From the human T2T-CHM13v2.0 reference genome, Homo sapiens, in assembly GCA_009914755.4 (NCBI GenBank), contig CP086569.2, positions 7,840,001-7,904,000 on the forward strand: a stretch of 64,000 bases of DNA. Reading direction: 5' to 3'. Positions 1,581 through 62,290 of the stretch are shown here, in pieces. A program made the translations under genes and the position numbers. The first letter of the stretch is position 1, and each line of letters begins with the position of its first letter. The notes below the pieces were generated by a model that had not been told where the DNA came from, made no database searches, and worked only from the letters and a program-made list of their open reading frames with translations.

Positions 1581-4500
1581 TTATGTTCACTAATGAAATG
1601 GGCAGTGCGTTGGCTCTCTTGGTGCAAAATATCATAGATGAGGTAAAGAACATGTTTAGGAATATATTCACAATTTCATGAACACAGCTAGTTTCTCTAT
1701 TCAAATCCCTGGCAGACAGGAGCAAACAGCATGAAATAAAGAAAAGCTCTACGTTTTTAGAAATAGGTACCCAACTAATACACATAAAAATTGTATTTAT
1801 AAAGCAGAATGCATATTTAATCAATCTAATCATATACAACCTCAGCTAAATTCTTCCCTAAGACATACACATACCTGCTAAGCAAAAGGAATAAGATGTC
1901 TCTAGGAAACTGCAGAAGTTAATTAGCTTCAAAAATACTTCAGATTTGCAATTAAAAATAATTTTAAATCCACAGTAGCACCTCATTAGAACACAGAGTA
2001 TGGTGATGCATTGGATTTTTTATTAAAAATTGTTCTATTTGGTCTTTATCTCAATGTTTGTGTTCAGGTATATAGCTGATTAATAATGTAAAGTGGTTTA
2101 TTAAGAAATATATTTGCATATTACTGTGAAATCATGGTGTATGAAATGGACTAAATAAAGCCTATAATGCCCAGGAAAATATTGCACACTGCGAAGATAA
2201 TATAAAGTTCAGTCATTTTATCTATAGCTTTATTGTTAAGTTGTATATGTAGATAGATGGTAGATAGATATCGACACATATATGAATTTTTACAAATTAC
2301 AGAGTTTACAAATCTAAAACCCATAATTTTTATCTCAAAATAATAAAGATTAAAATGTTAGCAATGTTCATGAATTGGTCAAAATTTTGCATCCTTGCCT
2401 TGGATTCTTGCTTATATTCATCAATTTTAATCTAGATCAAGACACTTAAATAAATGAAAATATCATATTAAATGAATTTGTTTATGCACTGCACTTCTTT
2501 TCTAATGGTATCACATGAGATAGTGGGATGCATGATTGCCATAGAATTTATGTTACTGTTCCTGTGTTTCCATGCCCAAATTAAAAATAAAATTTTATAA
2601 CAGAAATACTGAAAATGAAGAATGATGACAAATTGAGCAGTGATTTTAAAAAGACAAAAAATGTTTCAACTTTTTATAAGCAAATTAGATATATATTTTA
2701 AGAACTTTATATGAAGTCTTACATGTATCCGAATTATACTCAGGTATAAATAAATCTTAACTTCTTTATTATGTATTCAAGTTACCTGGCATTCCTCCTG
2801 AGCATCTCAAACCTCAAGATAGGGAAAAACTGTACTCAGTAAATCAAGTAAATGCATACAATGACTGTGTATTCACAAAAAATTAAAAATAAAGAAAAAG
2901 AAATAAAGTTGTTTTAGCACAATGCAATAATAAAAATAGTCACTTAAGCACAGTGCTCAAATGCTCGCTTTACTCATTTCACTTCTCTCTGCCTTTTATT
3001 ATCCAAGATGGTATCTCATGTATGAGATGGACTTTACTAATAGAACAGGCAAATGAGGAGACGTTGATTGAGAGTGTATTGAATCTATAAATAAATTTAG
3101 CAAAATTTTAAATCTCAAAAATGTTGCTTTTAATCTGGAATATGTTATATTTCTCCTATTAATATTTTCTAATTTATCTAAATAACATGTAATTTTGTTA
3201 AAACATCTTGTAATTACATTTAAATCTATATATTAGATAATTTGTATAATAACATAAATTCCATATTTTTAGATTTTATTTCTGAAGTTTTCTTTACTGT
3301 TATAGAGAAATGAAATGGGAGAAGGCCTCTATTTTTCCCATTTTACTGTAAGTCTGTTGGGTAAAGGACTGGCTCCTCAATCCTTATTGTATCAACAACA
3401 CTAAACAGGACGTGTATGACGAATACAACTTTGTTGAACCAAAGAAAGAAAATTTTGTAGGACCATATATACATATGTATCCAGAAAACTCACATCTGTA
3501 TTTTGTGTTTGCTCCTTCTTGTGACTTCTAACAGTAAGTCCTTAGCAACAGCATCCTCTCATCCTAAAATGGAAATGATATGGCCCAAATGCACAATGCT
3601 AAATTATTTGATCATAAATTGGGAGTCTTCTCTCTGAATACTAACAATAAGCATTATCTCCAATACTAACGCGTGCACAAAGTGTAATTAGATAACATTT
3701 AGAGATTGTTCAAAAGCCAAAACCACAAATAAGGCAACAATTCTAAAAATTTAATTTTCTCAACAAGGTCCTTTTTAAAATTATTATTATATTTAAGTTC
3801 TGGGGTACATGTGCAAAACATGCAGGTTAGTTACATAGGTATACACATGCCATGGTGGCTTGCTGCACTCATCAAACCGTCATCTGCATTAGGTAATTTT
3901 CCTAATGCTCTCCCTCCCCTATCCCCCACCAACGACATGCTCCAGTGTATAATGTTCCCCTTCCTGTGTCCATGTGTTCTCATTGTTCAACTCCTACTTA
4001 TGAGTGAGAACATGAGGTGTTTGGTTTTCTCTTCTTGTGTTAGTTTGCAGAGAATGATGGTTTCCAGCTTCATCCATGTCCCTGCAAAGGAGATAAACTC
4101 ATGATTTTTATGTCTGCATAGTATTCCGACGTGTATATATGCCATATTTTCTTGATGCATTGCAACACTGATGGGCATTTGGGTTGGTTCCAAGTCTTTG
4201 CTATTGTGAACAGTGCCATAATAAACATACGTGTGCATGTATCTTACCAGTAGAATGCTTTATAATCTTTGGCTATACAACCAGTAATGGTATTCCTGGG
4301 TCCAATGGTATTTCTAGTTCTAGATCCTTGAGGAATCACCACACTATCTTTCACAATGGTTGAACTAATTTGCACTACTACCAACAGTGTAAAAGCATTC
4401 TTTTTCTCCACATTATCTCCAGCACCTGGTGTTTCCTGACTTTTTAATGATCACCATTCTAACTGGCATGAGATGGTATCTTATCATAGTTTCAATTTGC

Positions 4501-5120
4501 ATTGCTCTAATCATCAGTGATGATGAGCTTTTCTTCCTGTGTTTGTTGCCTGCCTAAGTGTCTTCTTTTGAGGAGTGTCTGTTCATATACTTCACCCACT
4601 TTTTGATAAGATTTTTTTTTCTTGTAAATTTGGTTAAATCATGTAAAATTTTGTAGATCCTGGGTATTAGCTCTTTGTCAGATGGATAGATTGCAAAAAA
4701 TTTCTCCCATTCTGTAGGTTGCATGTTCAATCTGATAATAGTTTCTTTTACTATGCAGAAGTTATTTTATTTAATTAGATCTCATTTGTCAAATTTGGCT
4801 TCTATTGCCATTGGTTTTGGTGTTTTTAGTAATAAAGTCTTTTCCCATGCCTGTGTCCTGAATGGTATTGCCTAGGTTTTCTTCTAGGCTTTTTACGGTT
4901 TTTAGGTCTTAGGTTTAAGTCTTTAATCCATCTTGAGTTAATTTTTGTATAAGGTGCAAGGAAGGGGTCCAGTTACAATTTTCTGCCTATGGCTAGCCAG
5001 TTTTCCCAACAAAATTTATTAAATAGGGAATCCTCTCCGCATTGCTTTGTTAAGTTTATTGAAGATCAGATATTTGTAGATGTGTGGTGTTATTTCTAAA
5101 GCCTCTGATGTGTTGCATTG

Positions 5121-5158
<38 letters not shown>

Positions 5159-5238
5159 GCATCTATGTATAGGTGTATGTGTATATATATGCATATATAT
5201 TTAGGTGTGTGTATAAATATATATATTTATGTATAGAT
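5121..5238. repeat. (GT)n(TA)n microsatellite embedded in the L1 fragment
   Basis: gtgtgtgtgtgtgtgt then atatatatatatatatat, followed by imperfect GT/TA-rich units. Confidence 0.8.
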
Positions 5239-11578: not shown

Positions 11579-15375
<3,797 letters not shown>

Positions 15376-18639: not shown

Positions 18640-19965
18640 TTTAGACCTGCATCGATTTGCCCAATGTTACCCTTTCCTACAGCTGGAACATATAGAAGAG
18701 GGTTCTTTCCCCGAGTTAGCTTGGTTTTCACTATAGGGGCATTGCCTCTTCCCATGACCTTTCACTCCACATAGAAAACAATTTCGGTTTCTCTCCCTTT
18801 TCACTTTAGGTGGCCTTAATGTCATAGCTAATATTCTGGCCTTGTTTGTCTCAGTTCCTACCAGGTGACATGCTTATATCAGCTCCCTGCTGGCAATCCA
18901 CATTAGTGTTTTCAAAAGCCAATTGCAACAATAAGATAGGAGTGGCCTAGGTGTGACTAATTTGCGTTTTAATTGCCTGAGTTAATCGATCCATAAACTC
19001 AACAAATGGCTTTTGAGGCCCTTGTCAAACATTTACAAAAGACCCCTGCTGAGCTCAGCTCTTGGGAATTCAGTCCCAAGCTCTGAGAGCACACAAAGAC
19101 ACTTGAGCATAGGCCTGGGGCTCAAAATTTAGTTGTTGTTGTACATCAGCATGAGAATACCTCCCCTGGAGCTTATCAACAGTTGTATTTTGCCTGGCTG
19201 CCTGATTCTGGTTGTCTTGTTGTTCGCACAGTTCATCATATTCTACCGTCCAGAGGAGGTATGGGCTAGTCTCCAGAGTTGCTTTAGGCAGCATTGACCA
19301 GTCCCATTGGGCCATACAGAAGTGGTCTGCTAAGGCCTCAATCATTCTTTTTGCAGATGGTCTAGTGGCTCTGTTTTCTTTAATGCTTTTTCTTAGTTCT
19401 TCGTAAGAGTGAAAGGAAACAGGTTCATGTGCTTGATGACCATGTTGGTCTTGCATTACCAGATATGCTAAAAGCTCCCCTTCTAATGCCGCTTGTTTAA
19501 GACAAGGTCCCATAGCTGAAGTATGTTTCTTGCCTTTTTTTCTACTTATAGTAAGAGGGAGGTCAGGAAAACTCTCCATTTCCTCTTTGTTATTTTGGCC
19601 CGGTAATAGTAGGACTGAGGGAAAAGGAGGTGATAAGGCAGGCGATATTTCTCCTTCCTTTTTGTTTTTAGGCTCTTCTGTGTATAAAGCCATCCTTAGT
19701 AAAGCCCATTGTGTTAAAGCTGATGCTGGGACTTGATGCCCTTGTGCATAATATTGTTTATGATTTCTCCCTACTCATTCCCAGAGTTCTATGTCTAGTG
19801 TTCCTTCTTCTGGGAACCATGGATTATATGAGACCACAGTTTATATTAATTTTTGAACCTGTGAAACAAGCTCTGCTAGCCATAAGCAACTGTTTCTATA
19901 CTTTTATATTCTGTTTCTGCTGTGCTGATAACTGTTGTCCCATAATGAAAACTCAGCTTAAACCA
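18640..19965 (-). pseudogene. HERV-K-like gag (MA/CA/NC) remnant, internally deleted
   Basis: ORF 19070-19693 (minus) aligns to HERV-K Gag CA (FSIKMLKDMKEG...HGHRLIPYDWEILAKSSLSPSQFLQFKTW...VRAICLRAWEK). An MGQ start lies near 19965. The distance from CA to dUTPase (~0.6 kb) is shorter than the ~1.3 kb expected. Confidence 0.7.
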
Positions 19966-20769: not shown

Positions 20770-21541
20770 TGTGTCTGGAAATTATTCCTTCTGGTAGATT
20801 CTTGGTCTCCCTGACTTCAAGAATGAAGCCACAGACGCTCGCAGTGAGTGTTGCAGTTCTTAAAGATGATGTGTCCAGAATTTGTTCCTTCAGAGGTTCA
20901 AATGTGCCCAGAGTTTCTTCCTTCTGGTAGGTGTGTGGTCTCACTGACTTCAGGAGTGAAGTCGCAGACCTTTGCAATGAGTGTTATAGCTCTTAAAGGT
21001 GGCATGTCCAGAGTTGTTTGTTCCTCCTGGTGGGTTTGTGGCATTGCTGACTTCAGGAATAAAGCTGTGGACACTTATGGTGGGTGATACAACTCATAAA
21101 GGTAGTGCAGACCCAGAGTGAGCAGCAGCAAGATTTATTATGAAGAGTAAAAGAACAAAGCTTTCACAGCATGGAGGGGGACCTGAGCGGGTTGCCACTG
21201 CTGGGTTGGGTGGCCAGCTTTTATTCCCTTATTTGATCCTGCCCACATACTGCTGATTGATCCATTTTACAGAATGCTGATTGGTCCATTTTACAGAGTG
21301 CTGATTGGTCCACTTTACAGAGGGTTGATTGGTCCATTTCACAGAATGCTGATTGGTGCATTTACAATCCTTTAGCTAGACACAGAGTGCTGATTGGTGC
21401 GATTTTACAGAGTGTTGATTGGTGCATTTACAATCCTTTATCTAGACACAGAGCACTTGGTGCATTTACAATCCTTTAGCAAGACACAAAAGTTCTCCAA
21501 TTCCCCACCCAACCCAGAAGCTCAGCTGACTTCACCTCTCA
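20770..21541 (-). mobile_element. HERV9 3' LTR (LTR12 family), about 0.77 kb
   Basis: The plus strand starts tgtgtctggaaattattccttctgg and ends ...ctcagctgacttcacctctca. It contains the reverse complement of the R-region AATAAATCTTGCTGCTGCTCA, a TATA-like AATAAAAG box, ~40-bp U5 repeats and the U3 gctgattgg (CCAAT) tandem repeats. Confidence 0.8.
21241..21480 (-). promoter_or_regulatory. 3' LTR U3 tandem CCAAT-box repeats (about 7-8 units)
   Basis: This is the same unit family as in the 5' LTR; the copy number and the individual units differ between the two LTRs. Confidence 0.7.
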
Positions 21542-24834: not shown

Positions 24835-25260
24835 TTATCCTTCCAATGCCCAGACTTTAGTGTTGATTCCCTCAAGTAACTTGTTCCCCATATTTATGTA
24901 GATAATTATTTCAGCTTTGGCTAATATATCCCTCCCTAATAAGGGTGTGGGAATTTCAGGCATAACAAGAAAGGCATGTGAAAAGAGTACAGTCTCCCAA
25001 TTACAAATGTGGAGGTGGGAGAAATACCTGGGTACAGGCTGTCCCAGGATTCCTCGAATGGTAATGGACATTGAGGACAGGAGACTAACACCTGCCCAGG
25101 TGTTAATCTGTCCAGGACAGGAGATTAACACCAAGAAAGCCAAGCCAGTGTCCAGGAGGAAGTCAATTTCCTGACCCTTAATGGTTAAATGTACCCAGGG
25201 ATCAGTGAGAGTGATGACATGAGCTGGCACTTGCCCCAGGCACCCTCAGTCCTGTTGTTG
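24835..25260 (-). pseudogene. HERV9 protease (DTG-type aspartic protease)
   Basis: ORF 24835-25230 (minus) reads VHLTIKGQEIDFLLDTGLAFLVLISCPGQ...ITIRGILGQPVPRYFSHLHICNWETVLFSHAFLVMPEIPTPLLGRDILAKA, a near-colinear match to HERV-W Pro. Confidence 0.8.
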
Positions 25261-27847: not shown

Positions 27848-28216
27848 AAATGTGTCCAGAATTTATTCCTTCTGGTGTGTTCTTGATCTCAGTGACTTCA
27901 AGAATGAAGCTGTGGACCCCCGCACTGAATGTTACAGCTTTTAATGATGATGTATCCAGAGTTTGTTCCTTAAGTTGTTCAGATGTGTCTGGAGTTTCTT
28001 CCTTTCAGTGGGTTCATGGTCTCACTGGCTTCAGAATTGATGCCTCAGACCTTAGCAGTGAGTGTTACAGCTCTTAAAAGTGGTGCATCAGGAGTTGTTT
28101 TTTTGTCCTGGTGGGTTTGTGGTCTCACTGACTTCAGGAATGAAGTTGCGGAACCTCACAGTGAGTGTTACAGCTCATAAAGGTAGTGCAGACCCAAAGA
28201 TTGAGCAGCAGCAAGA

Positions 28217-28222
28217 TTTATT
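28217..28222 (-). terminator. LTR R-region polyadenylation signal AATAAA (5' LTR copy; the 3' LTR copy at 21134-21139 is the one that would be used)
   Basis: The plus strand caagatttattgtg is the reverse complement of CACAATAAATCTTGCTGCTGCTCA. Confidence 0.5.
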
Positions 28223-28299
28223 GTGAACAGTGAAAGAACAAAGTTTCCACAGCATGGAAGGGGACCTGAGCAGGTTGCCGCTGCCGGCTTGGTTGGCTA

Positions 28300-28308
28300 G
28301 TTTTATTC
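28300..28308 (-). promoter_or_regulatory. TATA-like box (AATAAAA) of the 5' LTR U3 promoter
   Basis: The plus strand ttttattcc is the reverse complement of gGAATAAAAc. It lies between the U3 repeats and the R region, as in ERV9 LTRs. Confidence 0.5.
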
Positions 28309-28320
28309 CCTTATTTCGCC

Positions 28321-28600
28321 CCATCCATCCTGCTGATTGGTCAGTTTTACAGAGTGCTGAATGGTCTCTTTTACAGAGTGCTATTGGTCCCTTTTACAGA
28401 GTGCTGATTGGTCCATTTTACAGAGTGCTGATTGGTCCATTTTACAGAGTGCTGATTGGTGTATTTACAATCCTTTTAGCTAGACACAGAGTGCTGATTG
28501 GTGCAGTTTTTACAGCGTGCTGATTGGTGCATTTGCAATACTTTAGCTAGACACAGAGCCCTGATTGGAGCATTTACAATCCTTTAGCTAGACATAAAAT
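28321..28600 (-). promoter_or_regulatory. 5' LTR U3 enhancer: about 9 tandem 22-41-bp units, each carrying a CCAAT box (plus strand shows tgctgattgg)
   Basis: Repeated tgctgattggtccattttacagag units alternate with tgctgattggtgcatttacaatcctttagctagacacagag units. ERV9 LTR U3 repeats are known NF-Y/GATA-binding enhancer modules. Confidence 0.7.
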
Positions 28601-28649
28601 TTCTCCAAGTCTCTACCTGGCCCAGAAGCTCAGCTGGCTTCACCTCTTA

Positions 28650-36490: not shown

Positions 36491-36575
36491 CCCTTCTTCC
36501 CTCCTTCCCTCCCTCCTTTCTTTCCTTCTTTCCTTCCTTCCTTCCCTTCTTCCTTCCTTCCTTCTTTCCTCGTTT
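36491..36575. repeat. (TTCC)n / (CCTT)n microsatellite
   Basis: ccttccctccctcctttctttccttctttccttccttccttcccttcttccttccttcc. Confidence 0.85.
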
Positions 36576-38605
36576 TAAATTAGAAGTCCAATTGAACCAT
36601 GCCTTTTGCTTGTTTTGACCTAACAATCAGGCTTTAAAATGTTACTGATTCAACCGTAATGTCAGGTGGCCAAGGAAGAGCAGTGAATAACTCAATCTGA
36701 TTTAGTACGTCTTTGATTAGAAACTTAAGGCCATGAAATAGTATCATCTCCAGCACCCTGAGTAGAAGTAGTTCCACCACAGAAATAGGTGGTAGTTAAT
36801 TTATTTAACCACTCAGTTTTGAAGTCTTCAATAACTTAGTTGAAATAAAGATGGTGAAGTCTCCCAATAAAATGAGCTAAGACTTCAAGAACAGGCAAGG
36901 CATTGGCAATTTTGAATCGGTAAAGCTGACGTTTTGTTACTAATTTTCTCTGAGAAAATGACATGGAGCAAGATTTGAGACCATCAAAAAACAAGGAAAC
37001 AAAGGTCACTTTATTGAATTTAAATGAAGTTAGATGACTTTAAATTGATTTAAACATATTTTAAAATCTATGTCTGATTTCACAAAATTAAATTGAATGT
37101 TTTATAATAAAATAAGCTTGTTTTGAGTTTTAAAGTCACACAACCATACCCACATATTATTTTTGTTAATTAATGGAAAAGAACACAAGTTCTACCTATT
37201 GACATAGTGGCAAAATAATAAAAAGGAACACACAACTCAAATTTTTCTACACACACACAGGCATTCTAAGTGACATAGAGGGTTAATTCTATGTAGATTG
37301 CATAAAATATTTCAGTTTTGTGTCTTGTACTTGTCCTTAAAAATAAAGAATAAATACAGGCAGAATAAAAACTAACCAAAATGAAATACACATTTTTTTT
37401 AACAGAAGTCTGAACGACGTCATTGGGAAATCCACGAGGGCTAAACTTAAATGAATATACATAAGATGCTAAGAGATATGTCTTAAAGCAGTATTTGCAA
37501 AGTAAGCACACTTTTCACTTACTTTACATATGATACATTGGGCCAGAAGTGCAAGGAGAGCCACTGCTTGTCCCTACAGTCATCCTGAGTCATAGGCTAT
37601 GACAGTGATAGTGAAAATTAGATAATAGGTGTGATATAGAACATTCAGATTGAGTGCAAGATAATACACATTTGCAGACATCAGGCAGAATGCAAATGTT
37701 CCACATTTGCAGCTACTATTGTTTTTCTGAAAAACAAAGTTTATAAATGCTGGGAAAAGTAAGCTATACCATTATAGATCTAAGACATCTGGAGAAGGAA
37801 ACTCATTATACACCACAAGTCTTGACAGCTGGAACTTCATTGATAGCTCATGCAAGCATTCCCCTATGGTGACTACGTTTACCAATACTGTACTGTATAG
37901 TTAAAAAACTTGCTCAGAGAGTAAAGCTTTATTGTTGTCACCCAAAACAAACAAAAAATACCCTAAACAGATACCAAACACAATTAAATTATCTTAAAGG
38001 ATACTAGAAATAAATGACAAGTTCTGTGTACACGAATGGCATTTACATGAGCAAGAAGTTTCTAAAAAGCAACAATTAAACATAAAGTAGCAGGATTTTT
38101 TCAAGCCATGATCTAAAATAATATATTTTAAAAAACTATCGTTAAAGTTTGAGTGTGAAATAAAGATACTTTATGATATACAAAACTTGAAAGGACGTAG
38201 TACAGAGAGTTTGCTTGCTGAAGTAATTTGTTAAGGTTAAGTTTGAGGAAAGAGGAAATTTCACACAAAAAGAAAAATTTAAGAACTAAAGTGAGTAAAC
38301 AAATTAATAAAGAAGAACATATTCCTAAGCTAGCAATAACAATGTAAACAATAACACTAACAATGAGTAATTAAGCATATGGTTAAGGTGCACCTAAAAT
38401 TCTAAACAATATGATTCGAATTTAATTACAATTTAATTGATAGAGTTTATGAGAACAAACAAAATTATAAGCCATATAAAAATGAATGTAGTAAAAACTG
38501 AAAATGTTCAAGTAAAAGTTTTAAATTTTATTGAAGGGCAAAATAAATGAAAGCCAAAATACACATAAAAACGTGTGCTGGGCAATTGTTAAAAAATCTT
38601 CACAT

Positions 38606-40312
38606 GATGAAGGACCTCTTCAAGGAGAACTACAAACCACTGCTCAATGAAATAAAAGAGGATGCAAACAAATGGAAGAACATACCATGCTCATGGATAG
38701 GAAGAATCAATATCATGAAAATGGCCACACTGCCCAAGGTAATTTATATATTCAATGCCATCCCCATCAAGCTACCAATGACTTTCTTCACAGAATTGCA
38801 AAAAACTATTTTAAAGTTCATGTGGAACAAAAAAAAAGCCCAAATTGTCAAGACAACCCAAAGCCAAAATAACAAAGCTGGAGGCATCACGCTACCTGAC
38901 TTCAAACTATGCTACAAGGCTACAGTAACCAAAACAGCATGGTACTGGTACCAAAACAGAGATACAGACCAATGGAACAGAACAGAGCCCTTGAAAATAA
39001 TACCACACATATACAACCATATGAACTTTGACAAACCTGACAAAAACAAGAAATGGGGAAAGGATTCCCTATTTAATAAATGATGTGGGGAAAACTGGCT
39101 AGCCATATGTAGAAAGCTGAAACTGGATCCTTTCCTTATACCTTACATAGAAATTATTTCAAGATGGATTAAAGACTTAAATGTTAGACCTAAAACCATA
39201 AAAACTCTAGAAAAAAACCTAGGCAATACCATTCAGGACATAGGCATGGGCAAGGACTTCATATCTAAAACAACAAAAGCAATGGCAACAAAAGCCAAAA
39301 TTGACAAATGGGATCTAATTAAACTAAAGGGCTTCTGCACAGCAAAAGAAACTACCACCAGAGTGAGCAGGCAACCTACAGAGTGGGAGAAAACTTTTAC
39401 AATCTACCCATCTGACAAATGGCTAATATCCAGAATATACAAAGATCTCAAACAAATTTACAAGAAAAAAGCAAACAACTCCATCAAAAAGTCAGCAAAG
39501 GATATGAACAGACACTTCTCAAAAGAAGACATTTATGCAGCCAAAAAACACATGAAAAAATGCTCACTATCACTGGCCATCAGAGAAATGCAAATCAAAA
39601 CCACAATGAGATACCGTCTCACACCAGTTAGAATGGTGATCATTAAAAAGTCAGGAAACAACAGGTGCTGGAGAGGATGTGGAGAAACAGGAACACCTTC
39701 ACACTGTTGGTGGTACTGTAAACTAGTTCAACCATTCTGGAAGACAGTGTGGCGATTCCTCAAGGATCTAGATCTGGAAATACCATTTGATCCAGCCATA
39801 CCATTACTGGGTATATACCCAAAGGATTATAAATCATGATGCTGTAAAGATACATGCACACGTATGTTCATTGCAGCACTATTCACAATAGCAAAGACTT
39901 GGAACCAACCCAAATGTCCATCAATGATAGACTGGATTAAGAAAATGTGGCACATAAACACCATGGAATACTATGCAGCCATAAAAAATGATGAGTTCAT
40001 GTCATTTGTAGGGACATGGATGAAGCTGGAAACTGTCATTCTGAGCAAACTATCGTAAGGACAAAAAACCAGACACCGCATGTTCTCACTCATAGGTGGG
40101 AATTGAACAATGAGAACACTTGTACACAGAGTAGGGAACATCACACGCTGGAGCCTGTCATGGGTTGGGGGGAGTGGGGAGGGATAGCATTAGGTGATAT
40201 ACCCAATGTAAATGACGAGTTAATGGGTGCAGCACACCAACATGGCACATGTATACGTATGTAACAAACTTGCACATTGTGCACATGTACCCTAGAACTT
40301 AAAGTATAATTT
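38606..40312 (+). mobile_element. L1 (L1PA-like) 5'-truncated 3' fragment (ORF2 C-terminus plus 3'UTR) with a ~14-bp TSD
   Basis: It starts in gatgaaggacctcttcaaggagaactacaaaccactgctcaatgaaataaaagag and ends ...gtaccctagaacttaaagtataattt. The TSD aaaaaatcttcacat sits at 38591-38605 and 40313-40327. Confidence 0.9.
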
Positions 40313-40512: not shown

Positions 40513-40806
<294 letters not shown>

Positions 40807-41193
40807 TGAGGACTCTGTTTAATAGTGAACACTTCTATACAGCTATTTCTAAATATTATGGTATGGAAAAATCTATTGCAAATTGAAGTAACCTGGAAGT
40901 AAATACTCTGTTATGACAGAAGTTACAGTCTAAGCAATGCTGAAGTAATGCACTATTCAATAATATCCTAAGAAATAAATTGAAGGCAAATGGACTAGAC
41001 TCATTTATTAATGACATATAAAAATAAATCTTTATGTCACAGTATACACAAGAGTAAATGGATGATGATTTTAAAAATACATGTCAAAACCGAAGCTGCC
41101 AAATTGCTAGGAGAAAATATTAGAGAATAATTTATAGTTTCAGAAAAATACTGTTAATACAGTTTAAAAGGCTTTAATAAAAAATAAAAATTT

Positions 41194-41525
<332 letters not shown>

Positions 41526-42074
41526 AATTAAAATTTTAAAAAGTAGACATACTAAAATAAAAATCTTTTTGACTTAAGACATCATGAAAAATTAAGTTAA
41601 TCATATGACCAACTGGAGACAGCTATAGCACAAAACATTAGTATGAAATAAAATAACACGTGTAAATCTATCAGATAAAGGGCAACATATAGAACAAATA
41701 AGCATCTAAGCAGGCACTTCACAGGAGAAAAAAAGCTGAATATTCAACAAATTCATGAAAAGAAAATTAAGATCACAATAAAAGGCCATGTTTTATCCAT
41801 GATACTGACTAAAATTGAGAAGTCAAACATCATCATGTGTTGAAAAGGGTGTGGAGAAGCAGGAACCTTAGTATTTAATACACTGTTCCTGTGAATTAAT
41901 GTGGTAACTTCAGAGCGTTCTGTACCCATGCTTGGTAAATTTGGAGACAGGCACACAAAATTACCAGGAACTTTTATTTCTTGATATACACTATAAAAAA
42001 GCCGGTTTATATGTTTGTTAAAAATAGACACAGGACAAAATGTTTTGGGGTTAAGAAGAAATTGTGGAAAAATA

Positions 42075-43660
42075 CTAACTCTCTTTCAATGGAGGACATG
42101 TATAAAAAATCACTTTTCTTTCACATAATGGAATGAAATACAGTGGTTAAAATGAATGAAAAAGAACTGTCCATGTAAACATTTGCAATTTCAAAACTAT
42201 AACATGTTTGAAAACTGAATTGCAAGGGGATACATTTGGTATGCAATACTTATATACTCTTTAAATGCCTCTAAAGCAATGGTATATATACTGTATATCC
42301 ACTGTATATATATATAATATATATCCACTGTATATACACTATACATCAACTGTATATATATACTATATACACTGTATATATACTATATATCCACTGTATA
42401 TATACTATATATCCACTGTATATATATACTATATATCCACTGTATATATATACTATATATCCACTGTATATATATACTATATATCCACTGTATATATATA
42501 CTATATATCCACTGTATATATATACTGTATATCCACTGTATATATATACTGTATATCCACTGTATATATACTATATACAGTGTATATATACTATATATAC
42601 TGTATATATACAGTGTATACGGTATATATATACAGTATATACAGTGTATATATATACAGTGGATATATAGTGTATATATACTGTATATACACTGTATATA
42701 TACTATATACTGTATATATACTATATATACAGTATTTATACAATATATACACTATATATACAGTGGATATATAGTATATATAGTGTATATAGTATATATA
42801 TAGTGTATATAGTATATAGAGTGTATATACTATATATATACAGTGTATATATATTATATATATACTATTTCTTTAGAGGCATTTAAAGAGTATATAAGTA
42901 TGTAAATATTTCATACCAAATGTATCCCCTTGCAATTCAGTTTTCAAACATGTTATCGTTTAGAAATTGCAAATGTTTATATGGACAGTTCTATTTCATT
43001 CATTTTAACCACTGTATTTTAATCCATTATGTGAAAGAAAAGTGATTTTTCATACATACCCTCCGTTGAAAGAGATATACTATGTATCTCTTTTATAGTA
43101 TACTATATAGTATAAGATATACTATATATACACTGTATATATACTATATATGCTGTATATATACACTATATTTACTGTATACATACACTATATATACTGT
43201 ATACATACACTATATATACTGTATATATACTGTATAAATATACTATATATACTGTATATATACACTCTATACTGTATACATATACTATATACACTGTATA
43301 CATACTATATATACTGTATATATACTTCATACTGTATACATACTATATATACTGTATATATACTTTATACTGTATATACTGTATGTATGTAATATATACT
43401 GTATATATGTATACTGTATATATACACTATATACTATAATATATATAGTATATGTACGGTATATATAGTGTATATATACAGTATACATATTATATACACT
43501 GTATATATTACATACATACAGTATATACAGTATATAGTATATATACTGTGTATATAGTATATATACAGTATATATAGTATATACTGTATATATAGTGTAT
43601 ATAATATATACTGTATATATACTGTATATATGGATAAATATTTACTGTATAAAACATGAT
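42075..43660. repeat. Complex AT-rich palindrome: ~200-bp inverted unique arms flank a ~580-bp internally palindromic (ACTGTATATATAC)-type array, followed by a second ~580-bp palindromic TA-rich array
   Basis: The left arm (42075-42275) ends ...tgaaaactgaattgcaaggggatacatttggtatgcaatacttatatactctttaaatgcctctaaag. The right arm (42855-43075) begins ctttagaggcatttaaagagtatataagtatgtaaatatttcataccaaatgtatccccttgcaattcagttttca, a reverse complement at about 93% identity. In the centre, the unit ccactgtatatatactatatat switches to its reverse complement atatatagtatatatacagtgg near 42590. Confidence 0.85.
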
Positions 43661-45610
43661 GTGGGAGAATTACATGCAAAATTCAGGACAATGATTACCT
43701 ATGGAGAGAAAGAAGGAAGAAAGGATGGAGGTGTTGTAGAGCCTTCAATACTCTCACAATATTTATTTACTTTTTCAACTCCTAAGAGAGATTAACTGAC
43801 ATGGAAAAATGTTAACATTTAATTATTGCATTATATTTCATAAAGACATACCTTCCCTAGTATGCAGCAGTTACTGTTGTACATGCTTTACAAATATTAC
43901 TTGATTTAATTTTAATGGTAAAACCTGTGAGGTAGTATTAATATAACACTCATTTCCTAGATTACAAGACTAAGGTGAAGAAAGTTTAAATGGCTTGCAC
44001 AAATTCACATAGAGCTAGATTTGAAGCCAGGTATGTCTGTGGTCTATTGATATGATGCCCTTTCTTGCATGGCTCATTTCTTCAACATCAATAGTACATG
44101 TAGGTGGATATTTCCAATATATTTTTTCATACTTTGGGATTTTCTGAAAATTATCACAATTAAAATCAAACACTTAGAAATCCAGGAAATTCTGCTTGCC
44201 ACTATTCGGTGACGAAAGGACCACATATATGTAGAAAGCCGGTTGTTAGAAATAAGTCCCAACATAACAATAATTATTGATAGAGCAGGAGCACTGGCAT
44301 CTTGGACAAACACCACCACTTTAAATTCTGTCTCCTTTTGTGGCCTCATGCATTTCATGGAAATCACTTATCTTCTGACTACAAGCAGCTAAAAAGAGCA
44401 GACAGTAAAACACAAATAAGACAACTCAGCACAGAGGGAGGTGAAGGGAAAGTCTGTTGAGTAAATGTCAAACTTCGCCTCATACAATGGGCCCCAGTAA
44501 AACAGTGGGCCTTATTAAGTACACTCCTTTCCCTTCAGGTGCACCAAGTTAGGGAAGCTAAAAGTGGAATGCGGGGATAAGCCTGCAGCTGCAGAAAGAT
44601 GTATGGGAACAGGTACACAACTCTCCCTCCCAAACAAGCACAACAGAGACACAGAAGTAGTCCAAGCCTCTGATAAACTCTCCCACCCTTAATCTGTAAA
44701 AACTCTTAGTCCCTAAGAAAGTGTGTCTCTGACCTAACTCAGCCAGAAGGTGCCCTCTCAGGTTTGTTTTCTCTAAAATAAGTCTGTCCTTACTGGTGAG
44801 CCACCTTTTCTTCTTTCTTCTCTGTTTATTTCTTACAATCATAATAAATGTAAATGATCTAAACTCACTCATTAAATATCAGCTAAATAATACTTGCAAG
44901 AGAGAAGCCTAATGCATAAAGCACATGGGGACTGAAAATAAAAGGATAGGAGCAAATAAACTAGGTAAATGCTAATCAATAGAAAGATGATATATTTATA
45001 TTAATTTTATAAAAACTAAGCTTTTATACAAGAAAATATATATTTTTAAGAATAGAGAAGGCCACTGCTTCATGGAAGTCTCTCTTCAACAAGGGGTTAG
45101 TTACTTAAAATGTGTGTGCACCTAATAAAATTAGCACACATATCTAATAAAAAAGGATATAATTTCAGGGATTTTTTTTTTACTCTACTCATATGGTAAT
45201 TTTATGTGTCAGTCTGACTGCGCAAGTGTGCACCCAGATGTGTGGTCAGGCATTATTCTGTTGTGTCTGTGGGGGTGTTTCTGGATGAGATTAACGTTTT
45301 AGATAATGAGTAAAGAAAGATATAAGACTTGGGTAGAACAAAAAGGATAAAATAAAGGGGACTACTTCCTGCCTAATTGTATTTGAGCTGAGGCTTTGAA
45401 TTCTTCTGCCATTAGATTCAAACTAAAACCTTGGCTCTTCCCAGATCTCAAGGTTGTCACCCTTCAAACTGGAAACACACCATTAGCCATCCTGGTTCTC
45501 TGGCCTTTGGTATCAGACTATAACTATACTATCAATACTCCTGGGTCTCCAAATTGCCAACTGTGTTTATTAGAACTTGCCAGCCTTCCTAACTGCAGGA
45601 ATCTATATAT

Positions 45611-48275: not shown

Positions 48276-48616
<341 letters not shown>

Positions 48617-55239: not shown

Positions 55240-62290
<7,051 letters not shown>

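What the first reader, a model, noticed from the sequence alone, without database searches (positions are those of the whole stretch)
42075..43660. A 1.6-kb AT-rich near-perfect palindrome with ~200-bp unique inverted arms (PATRR-like, cruciform-prone)
Two ~200-bp non-repetitive arms (42075-42275 and 42855-43075) are reverse complements at about 93% identity. They flank a ~580-bp TA-rich array that is itself palindromic about ~42590: ccactgtatatatactatatat units switch to atatatagtatatatacagtgg. A second TA-rich block with internal symmetry follows at 43080-43660. Long palindromic AT-rich repeats (PATRRs, as at 11q23/22q11/17q11) extrude as cruciforms, mediate recurrent translocations and deletions, are unstable in E. 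coli clones, and are often mis-assembled. No interspersed-repeat family explains the unique arms, so this looks like a locus-specific inverted duplication or hairpin element rather than a transposon.
Basis: seen in the sequence. Interest (0 to 1): 0.7.

Follow-up and report, generated by a model that had tools for sequence, protein, structure and literature searches.

The report
Old AT-rich palindrome inside an L1
A real but imperfect 1-kb AT-rich palindrome sits inside a decayed L1 retrotransposon in a primate (probably human) genome; it most likely arose from one ancient fold-back copying error in an unstable TA-rich repeat, and it is a hairpin-prone example of a known kind of sequence, not a new element.

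Summary
Arms 42079-42278 and 42866-43077 are reverse complements at about 93% identity, with one 8-nt indel. They flank a 587-bp TA-rich array of 22-24-nt units that switches orientation at 42585/42586. A second TA array (43078-43640) follows and has its own palindrome centred near 43448. As single-stranded DNA, the 1-kb unit folds at -348 kcal/mol, against -96 +/- 5 for shuffles.

The arms are not unexplained unique sequence. They are the last ~200 nt of ORF2 of an ancient L1 that runs colinearly into the left arm, and the TA array starts where the ORF2 stop is predicted. "Near-perfect" is overstated: the centre is about 80% symmetric, with only a 3-bp perfect stem at the axis. AT content is 70-81%, against 90-98% in true PATRRs.

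No sign of a transposon was found: no target-site duplication and no arm family.

Best model: a single template switch inside a pre-existing TA minisatellite copied about 490 nt backwards. That inserted the right half of the array plus the right arm, about 17-38 My ago. Hairpins during replication are likely. Whole-palindrome cruciform extrusion from this allele is not.

It is a new member of a known kind, of modest interest.

The parts
41600..42078 (+). Remnant of an ancient L1 (ORF2 3' region) that runs directly into the left arm
   Evidence: nhmmer with a profile of four in-window L1 copies hits 41703-41891, E = 3.2e-10. tblastx hits L1 copies at 14.8k, 39.6k, 59.9k and 4.4k. The top four PDB hits are human L1 ORF2p residues 1100-1142. 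The region aligns colinearly with in-window L1 copies.
42079..42278 (+). Left arm: the original copy, corresponding to the last ~66 codons of L1 ORF2
   Evidence: It is contiguous and colinear with the upstream L1. The arm alone against L1 copy c59 scores z = 5.3, with 0/500 shuffles as good, at the colinear position. By spacing from the ORF2p hit, the ORF2 stop is predicted at about 42276. AT content is 70%.
42279..42585 (+). TA1-left: TA-rich minisatellite of 22-24-nt units (TATATATACTATATATCCACTGTA), all in one orientation
   Evidence: TRF. There are 15 consecutive ACTGTA-oriented units. Units at 42410-42506 are 100% identical, which indicates recent expansion that the other half does not mirror.
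42586..42865 (-). TA1-right: degenerate inverted copy of TA1-left
   Evidence: The best symmetry axis is 42586, with 251/312 = 80% identity including gaps. The perfect stem at the axis is only 3 bp.
42866..43077 (-). Right arm: inverted copy of the left arm
   Evidence: 92.7% identity to the reverse complement of the left arm, with an extra TTACATAC unit. AT content is 72%.
43069..43093 (.). Small 9-bp-stem hairpin (AAAGAGATA / TACTATG / TATCTCTTT) straddling the junction of the right arm with TA2; a possible trace of the return switch
   Evidence: Read directly from the sequence. Not tested statistically.
43078..43640 (+). TA2: second TA-rich array of 20-nt units. Its first two-thirds share the orientation of TA1-left. 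Its distal 360 nt form their own imperfect palindrome centred near 43448
   Evidence: TRF. Orientation map. Inverted repeat 43297-43408 / 43492-43603 at 88%. TA2 against its own reverse complement is 84% over 43268-43628. The DNA fold is -133.8 kcal/mol against -87.9 +/- 4.3 for shuffles, z = -10.7. An independent contig, L002, reproduces 43474-43640 exactly.
43641..43850 (+). Right flank; possibly the remainder of the host L1 3' UTR (unverified)
   Evidence: Only a resemblance recalled from memory to L1M 3' ends. There is no significant match to anything else in the window.

Best explanation
This is a non-coding by-product of mutation, not a mobile element or a gene. An ancient L1 lies here in + orientation, and a TA-rich minisatellite grew at about its ORF2 stop codon. 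During replication or break repair, the nascent strand folded back within the self-complementary TA array at about 42585. It then copied roughly 490 nt of its own or the complementary strand backwards, as far as 42079, and returned to the original template. This corresponds to the '3-2-1-4' type of Loytynoja and Goldman's four-point template-switch model, but with a 2->3 fragment of about 490 nt where their events are tens of bp. The event inserted TA1-right plus the right arm (42586-43077) into the array. That produced a spacer-less ~1-kb palindrome, with the distal remainder of the array (TA2) left on its right. The arms have since diverged by about 7%, which suggests roughly 17-38 My if there was no gene conversion. 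The arrays kept slipping, which eroded central symmetry, and TA2 later acquired its own smaller palindrome. Today the locus should form large hairpins whenever it is single-stranded, for example on the lagging strand, so fork stalling, length polymorphism and assembly or cloning trouble are expected. Extrusion of the whole palindrome as a cruciform from duplex DNA is unlikely for this allele. What is shown: the anatomy, the L1 origin of the arms, the folding energy and the imperfect centre. What is inferred: the order of events, the template-switch mechanism, the age and the behaviour in vivo.
For: Arms are about 93% identical over ~200 nt, E = 1.6e-67. The left arm is colinear with the host L1: nhmmer E = 3e-10 immediately upstream, and the best PDB hits are L1 ORF2p residues 1100-1142, which places the ORF2 end at about 42276, the inner arm boundary. 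The arm alone against an in-window L1 gives z = 5.3 at the colinear position, and at protein level p is about 0.005. The arms share boundaries and idiosyncratic sequence, so they are one duplication and not two insertions. The axis at 42586 falls within 14 nt of the midpoint between the inner arm ends. The first two-thirds of TA2 share the orientation of TA1-left, as expected if TA2 is the distal remainder of the original array. There is no target-site duplication and no other arm copy in the window. The 13-15 substitutions plus an indel between the arms argue against a fold-back sequencing or cloning chimera, which would be perfectly symmetric. The ssDNA fold is -348.2 kcal/mol against -96 +/- 5, z = -51. 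The mechanism class is documented in human and ape genomes (PMC5453318).
Against: No outgroup or orthologous sequence was available, so the ancestral state (L1 - TA array - L1 without the right arm) is not shown. L1 continuation to the right of TA2 is not demonstrated. TA-rich arrays are intrinsically self-complementary, so TA1's 80% symmetry is only slightly above background. Documented short template switches span tens of bp, not about 490. A hairpin-capped break followed by end-joining would give the same product. Contig L001 may be a third arm copy elsewhere, which the model does not predict.
Confidence: 0.7

Rival explanations
1. It is an active PATRR-type rearrangement hotspot. Some population alleles are long and symmetric, extrude cruciforms, and mediate translocations or deletions. 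The reference allele is a degenerate variant. This is compatible with the same origin model.
For: Two of the three common PATRR features listed in PMC4255720 are met: an AT-rich centre with less AT-rich ends, and a flanking AT-rich region, here TA2. Hairpin energy is very favourable. Two independent short-read contigs both stop inside TA2, at 43474 and 43502. Identical 24-nt units at 42410-42506 show recent array dynamics.
Against: The axis has only a 3-bp perfect stem, and the centre is about 80% symmetric. Kogo et al. found that even small central asymmetry abolishes extrusion and instability. AT content is 76%, against 90-98% for PATRRs. The ~7% arm divergence implies long stable persistence. 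PATRR8 primers are absent from the window. No breakpoint data are available.
Confidence: 0.12
2. It is a fold-back or TIR DNA transposon (or MITE) with ~200-bp terminal inverted repeats and a TA-rich interior, inserted into an L1.
For: The architecture of long inverted termini around an AT-rich core resembles fold-back elements. One metagenome contig (L001) carries a ~165-nt arm-like segment in unrelated flanks.
Against: The left arm is the colinear continuation of the host L1 ORF2. There is no target-site duplication. No other copy exists in 64 kb. A 43-mer shared by both arms occurs once in the metagenome set and not at all in the genome and viral sets. L001 has a single arm fragment with no partner and no TA array. 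Its core is a left-arm/right-arm hybrid that switches inside their 45-nt identical block, as expected from a de Bruijn mis-join at 1.35x coverage.
Confidence: 0.03
3. It is an assembly or cloning artefact (a collapsed or fold-back chimera) and not real genomic structure.
For: AT-rich palindromes are notoriously mis-assembled; the reference lacks most of PATRR8 (PMC4255720). No independent contig spanning either arm was found.
Against: The arms differ by 13-15 substitutions and an 8-nt indel with a normal transition/transversion mix, and the array halves are asymmetric. Artefactual fold-backs are perfectly symmetric. Contig L002 reproduces 43474-44781, including 167 nt of TA2, with 2 mismatches in 1308 nt. 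The L001 core contains diagnostic variants of both the left and the right arm, so both arms exist in another individual's reads.
Confidence: 0.05
4. It is a hairpin-RNA gene, a long inverted-repeat precursor of small RNAs born from the duplication.
For: Inverted duplications and template switches are a documented source of new miRNA hairpins (PMC10710096, listed).
Against: No Rfam family matches anywhere in the window at gathering thresholds. The arms accumulate uncompensated mismatches. There is no evidence of transcription. A 200-bp stem with a 590-nt TA-rich loop is unlike animal miRNA precursors.
Confidence: 0.03
5. It is two independent insertions of the same L1 family in opposite orientation.
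For: Both arms are L1-derived.
Against: The arms are 93% identical to each other but only about 55-60% identical to the other L1 copies in the window. They start and end at the same L1 positions and share private sequence.
Confidence: 0.01

Closest known systems
Palindromic AT-rich repeats (PATRR11, PATRR22, PATRR17, PATRR8)
   Same: A spacer-less palindrome with an AT-rich centre, relatively less AT-rich ends and an additional AT-rich repeat block next to it. Predicted hairpin/cruciform energy is strongly favourable. It lies in a primate genome.
   Different: It is about 1 kb, where PATRRs are 190-600 bp. The arms are 93% identical and the centre about 80%, against >98-100% for PATRRs. AT content is 70-81%, against 90-98%. 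There is no perfect central symmetry. The arms are recognisable L1 ORF2 sequence. No known link to translocations exists. It is not PATRR8, because the PATRR8 primers are absent.
Template-switch mutations that create inverted repeats (four-point model, type 3-2-1-4; Loytynoja and Goldman 2017, PMC5453318)
   Same: A stretch of nearby sequence is copied in reverse complement and inserted next to its source. This creates a hairpin-forming inverted repeat in one step.
   Different: The inferred copied fragment is about 490 nt, against tens of bp in the published events. The switch lies inside a TA minisatellite. The event is old and not observed against an outgroup.
AT-rich minisatellites of rare fragile sites FRA10B and FRA16B
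   Same: Tandem AT-rich units a few tens of bp long, with variable unit types and evidence of recent unit expansion.
   Different: Units here are 20-24 nt and 79-81% AT, and each array is only about 0.55 kb. The fragile-site repeats have ~42- or 33-bp units, are 91% AT, and are fragile when expanded to >5 kb (PMC9714581). Locus identity could not be tested.
Long inverted repeats formed by inverted Alu or L1 pairs
   Same: The arms are retrotransposon sequence in inverted orientation, close together.
   Different: Here both arms are copies of one and the same L1 fragment produced by local duplication. They are not two independent insertions.

Membership tests
PATRR (translocation-associated palindromic AT-rich repeat) | Nearly perfect palindrome several hundred bp long, without a spacer (PMC4255720, PMC4940405) | tested here: not met
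   Arms are 92.7% identical. The centre is 80% symmetric including gaps. The perfect stem at the axis is 3 bp. There is no spacer, but the total length is about 1 kb.
PATRR (translocation-associated palindromic AT-rich repeat) | AT-rich centre with relatively non-AT-rich ends; very high AT content (>90% for PATRR11/22, 97-98% for PATRR8) | tested here: inconclusive
   The gradient is present: centre 79% AT, arms 70-72%. The absolute AT content is far below published PATRRs.
PATRR (translocation-associated palindromic AT-rich repeat) | Another AT-rich region flanking the palindrome | tested here: met
   TA2 at 43078-43640 is 81% AT.
PATRR (translocation-associated palindromic AT-rich repeat) | Found at the centre of constitutional translocation breakpoints; size or symmetry polymorphism in the population | not testable with these tools
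   No genome coordinates, SV catalogues or breakpoint data are available. PATRR8 primers are not in the window.
TIR DNA transposon / MITE / fold-back element | Target-site duplication flanking the terminal inverted repeats | tested here: not met
   The flanks share only ATACTA, and it lies 23 nt from the right arm end.
TIR DNA transposon / MITE / fold-back element | Multiple dispersed copies with the same termini | tested here: not met
   No further copy in the window. One ambiguous hit in the metagenome collection and none in the genome or viral collections. No full eukaryotic genome could be searched.
TIR DNA transposon / MITE / fold-back element | Termini are element-specific and not part of the surrounding sequence | tested here: not met
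   The left arm continues the host L1 ORF2 colinearly.
LINE-1 (origin of the arm sequence) | Significant similarity to L1 ORF2 in colinear order | tested here: met
   Upstream region: nhmmer E = 3e-10, tblastx E down to 3e-7, PDB ORF2p E = 0.009 as the top four hits. Arm itself: z = 5.3 against copy c59 at the colinear position, protein-level p about 0.005 against c39. Copies c14 and c4 gave no signal and Pfam found nothing.
LINE-1 (origin of the arm sequence) | Assignment to a named L1 subfamily by Dfam/RepeatMasker | not testable with these tools
   No repeat library is available.
Template-switch (four-point model) mutation | The inserted fragment is the reverse complement of adjacent sequence | tested here: met
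   42586-43077 is the reverse complement of 42079-42585. The arms match at 93% and the array at about 80%.
Template-switch (four-point model) mutation | An ancestral or outgroup sequence lacks the inverted copy | not testable with these tools
   No orthologous primate sequence was obtainable. Contigs L002 and L003 cover only the right flank.

The most novel reading that the evidence does not exclude
The locus is an unrecognised PATRR-class instability site. Some human haplotypes would carry a longer, more symmetric TA palindrome that breaks at its centre, and fragments of the arms would be copied into other loci as templated insertions. On this reading, contig L001, an arm core in foreign flanks, is a real third copy and not a mis-join.
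Probability: 0.1. Interest if true: 0.6.

Novelty: new member of a known kind. Interest (0 to 1): 0.3.

Why it matters
AT-rich palindromes stall replication forks, break chromosomes, and are under-represented or mis-assembled in references. This one shows legibly how such a structure can arise: a single fold-back copying event inside a TA minisatellite at the end of an L1, followed by tens of millions of years of decay. It is a candidate for length polymorphism and for mapping or assembly errors. It is also a useful negative control for cruciform predictions, because it has a large hairpin energy but poor central symmetry. It does not reveal a new class of element or a function.

Tried and rejected
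(1) Rfam at gathering thresholds over the whole window gave no hits, so no known RNA gene or miRNA lies here.

(2) Pfam on the arm translation gave nothing, even at E = 10.

(3) A protein-database search with the arm translation found no candidates. Seven of eight exact-ORF look-ups around the arms returned nothing. Only the right-flank ORF was on record. I therefore could not obtain independent assemblies or orthologues spanning the arms.

(4) I tried to use the two LTR12-like blocks (20770-21539 and 27851-28647) as an in-window molecular clock. They are only 81% identical, so they are not a 5'/3' LTR pair.

(5) I tested for L1 continuation to the right of TA2 against the window and found no significant match. 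This remains unresolved.

(6) The bacterial promoter/terminator scan is irrelevant here and showed no enrichment: 29 sites against 30 expected.

(7) I looked for FRA10B/FRA16B motif sequences in the literature. The held review gives only unit lengths, so identity with those loci could not be tested.

(8) I first read contig L003 as an Old World monkey orthologue because it is 93.9% identical. I rejected that reading. Its differences are 2 in the first 425 nt and 55 in the last 505 nt, many of them adjacent double changes, which points to a noisy 1.2x contig.

(9) I considered whether L001 is a spliced transcript. There are no AG/GT signals at the segment borders on either strand.

Full report
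**What is there**

The window is vertebrate DNA: CpG observed/expected is 0.18 and GC is 37%. It carries six Alu-consensus matches, several L1PA-type L1 copies and LTR12/HERV9-like GATTGG tandem repeats. It is therefore from a catarrhine primate.

A metagenome contig, L002, matches 43474-44781 with 2 mismatches in 1308 nt. That level of identity fits human contamination, so the window is most likely human. This is an inference.

- The repeat finder reports inverted arms 42067-42258 / 42897-43088, 192 nt, 91% complementary without gaps.
- A gapped alignment gives 191/206 = 92.7% identity, with one 8-nt indel, an extra TTACATAC unit in the right arm.
- BLASTN of the left arm against the window finds only itself and its inverted partner, E = 1.6e-67.
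- I place the arms at 42079-42278 and 42866-43077.

Between the arms lies a TA-rich array at 42279-42865, with 22-24-nt units such as TATATATACTATATATCCACTGTA. It has 15 consecutive units in one orientation up to 42559, then mostly the opposite orientation. The best symmetry axis is 42586.

A second array at 43078-43640 has 20-nt units. It contains its own inverted repeat, 43297-43408 / 43492-43603, at 88%. Against its own reverse complement it is 84% over 43268-43628.

In the whole window, only these two inverted pairs of >=100 nt exceed 85% complementarity.

**How good a palindrome is it?**

Folded as single-stranded DNA, 42079-43078 forms one giant hairpin of -348.2 kcal/mol. Twenty dinucleotide shuffles give -96 +/- 5, so z = -51. 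TA2 alone gives -133.8 against -87.9 +/- 4.3, z = -10.7.

The symmetry is good only in the arms.
- The two halves of the central array are 80% identical counting gaps (251/312). The TA blocks here reach 76-78% with each other in either orientation, so 80% is barely above background.
- At the axis the perfect stem is only 3 bp.
- The longest perfect local hairpins (14-17 bp) lie off-centre, at 42707-42735 and 43558-43594.
- AT content is 70-72% in the arms, 79% in the centre and 81% in TA2.

**The arms are L1 sequence**

That is not so.
- The sequence immediately to the left (41703-41891) matches a profile built from four L1 copies in the same window, E = 3.2e-10.
- tblastx hits those copies with E down to 3e-7.
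- A stitched translation finds human LINE-1 ORF2 protein as the top four PDB hits (8sxt, 9k6g, 8uw3, 9hdo), residues 1100-1142 of 1275, E = 0.009-0.03.

Counting 133 codons on from that match puts the ORF2 stop at about 42276. That is the inner end of the left arm, where the TA array begins. The left arm therefore corresponds to the last ~66 codons of ORF2.

Evidence for the arm taken alone is moderate.
- Against L1 copy c59 it aligns over 42077-42234 exactly where colinearity predicts, with z = 5.3 and 0/500 shuffles as good.
- At protein level against copy c39, p is about 0.005.
I treat that as a lead only.
- Two other in-window copies and Pfam gave no signal.

The left arm is thus the native 3' end of an old L1, and the right arm is its inverted copy.

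**What it is not**

- It is not a TIR, MITE or fold-back transposon. There is no target-site duplication, the left terminus is host L1 sequence, and the window holds no other copy.
- It is not a high-copy sequence. A 43-mer identical in both arms occurs once in 241 million metagenome records and not at all in the bacterial/archaeal genome and viral collections.
- It is not two independent L1 insertions. The arms are 93% identical to each other but only about 55-60% identical to other L1 copies, and they share start and end points.
- It is probably not a fold-back artefact. Such chimeras are perfectly symmetric, whereas these arms differ by 13-15 substitutions (7 transitions and 6 transversions in one alignment) plus an indel, and the array halves are asymmetric.
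- No Rfam family matches.

**Most likely origin and behaviour**

The simplest history has four steps.
1. A TA-rich minisatellite grew at the L1 ORF2 stop.
2. A nascent strand folded back within the self-complementary array at about 42585.
3. It copied about 490 nt backwards, as far as 42079.
4. It returned to the original template.

This inserted 42586-43077 (TA1-right plus the right arm) and left the distal part of the array (TA2) on the right.

Three observations fit this history. The palindrome has no spacer. The first two-thirds of TA2 share the orientation of TA1-left. Homology ends abruptly at 43077, where TA-like sequence resumes.

It is the inverted-repeat-creating '3-2-1-4' case of the four-point template-switch model (PMC5453318), at roughly ten times the usual scale. 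A hairpin-capped break repaired by end-joining would give the same product.

Arm divergence is 7.3%, or 7.7% Jukes-Cantor corrected. With commonly used primate neutral rates of 1.0-2.2e-9 per site per year, and no gene conversion, that gives about 17-38 My.

Later events are also visible. Units at 42410-42506 are 100% identical and unmirrored, which indicates recent expansion. TA2 has its own palindrome.

Kogo et al. showed that cruciform extrusion and instability in E. coli depend on length and on perfect central symmetry, while hairpin formation on single strands depends much less on it (PMC1851657). From that I infer the following. This allele is a strong hairpin former during replication. 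It is a plausible source of slippage, polymorphism and assembly trouble. It is a poor candidate for whole-palindrome cruciform extrusion.

**Comparison with PATRRs**

PMC4255720 lists three common features of PATRRs.
- Nearly perfect palindrome of several hundred bp: not met.
- AT-rich centre with less AT-rich ends: met qualitatively, but at 79% and 70-72% AT. PATRR8 is 97-98% AT, and PATRR11/22 are >90% (PMC4940405).
- A flanking AT-rich region: met, by TA2.

Association with translocation breakpoints and population polymorphism cannot be tested here. PATRR8 primers do not occur in the window. I therefore describe the locus as having a PATRR-like layout in a degenerate form. I do not file it as a PATRR.

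**Loose end: contig L001**

The single metagenome hit is L001 (ERZ781269, 1419 nt, coverage 1.35). It carries about 165 nt of arm core with completely unrelated flanks.

In the core it has the left-arm base at all six 5' sites where the arms differ, and the right-arm state at the 3' sites, including the extra TTACATAC unit. It has essentially no private changes. The switch falls inside the 45-nt block where the arms are identical.

A de Bruijn assembler would produce exactly that pattern by collapsing the two arms. That reading is consistent with both arm variants being present in another individual's reads. The foreign flanks are then either further mis-joins or a real third copy. I could not decide between these.

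Contigs L002 and L003 both end inside TA2, at 43474 and 43502, just right of its palindrome centre.

**Verdict**

The structure is real and its origin is explained. It is a new example of a known kind of sequence and is of modest interest.

Noticed in passing
L001:1018-1182 (metagenome contig ERZ781269 NODE-25244, coverage 1.35): A ~165-nt arm core sits in completely unrelated flanks. Its sequence is a left-arm/right-arm hybrid that switches inside the 45-nt block where the arms are identical, with almost no private changes. It is either an assembler mis-join of the two arms or a genuine third copy at another locus.
   Followed up: partly
L002 = window 43474-44781; L003 = window 43502-44432: Two independent metagenome contigs carry the right flank, and both terminate inside TA2 just right of its palindrome centre (about 43448). 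L002 differs from the window by 2 bases in 1308, which suggests human contamination and a human window. L003 has 2 differences in its first 425 nt but 55 in its last 505 nt, many of them adjacent doubles, so it looks like a noisy low-coverage contig and not an orthologue.
   Followed up: partly
window 40703-40840 and 41162-41299: An inverted pair of 138 nt at 72% complementarity with a 321-nt spacer lies about 0.8 kb upstream of the palindrome. It is probably two Alu elements in opposite orientation, since an Alu-consensus match lies at 41371-41397. This is a second potential hairpin-former next to the locus.
   Followed up: no
window 21251-21453 and 28331-28575 (wider blocks 20770-21539 / 27851-28647): There are arrays of 24-nt TGCTGATTGGTCCATTTTACAGAG repeats typical of LTR12/HERV9 LTRs. 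The two blocks are only 81% identical, so they are not the two LTRs of one provirus. Retroviral-looking ORFs lie at 19070-19693 and 24835-25230.
   Followed up: partly
window 13658-15025, 38547-40300, 58441-60400, and about 3700-4570 (minus strand): Four L1PA/L1PB-type L1 ORF2 remnants are 77-86% identical to each other. They were used here as the in-window L1 reference.
   Followed up: partly
window 43069-43093: A perfect 9-bp stem with a 7-nt loop (AAAGAGATA TACTATG TATCTCTTT) sits exactly at the junction of the right arm and TA2. The arm's terminal 9 nt are repeated in inverted orientation, which may be a footprint of the return template switch.
   Followed up: no
window 36492-36570; 48558-48598; 5144-5236: Other simple repeats: a (CCTT)n-type array, a perfect 41-nt poly(A), and a 32-nt-unit TA/TG-rich repeat. 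No other array of the TATATAC/ACTGTA type exists in the window.
   Followed up: no
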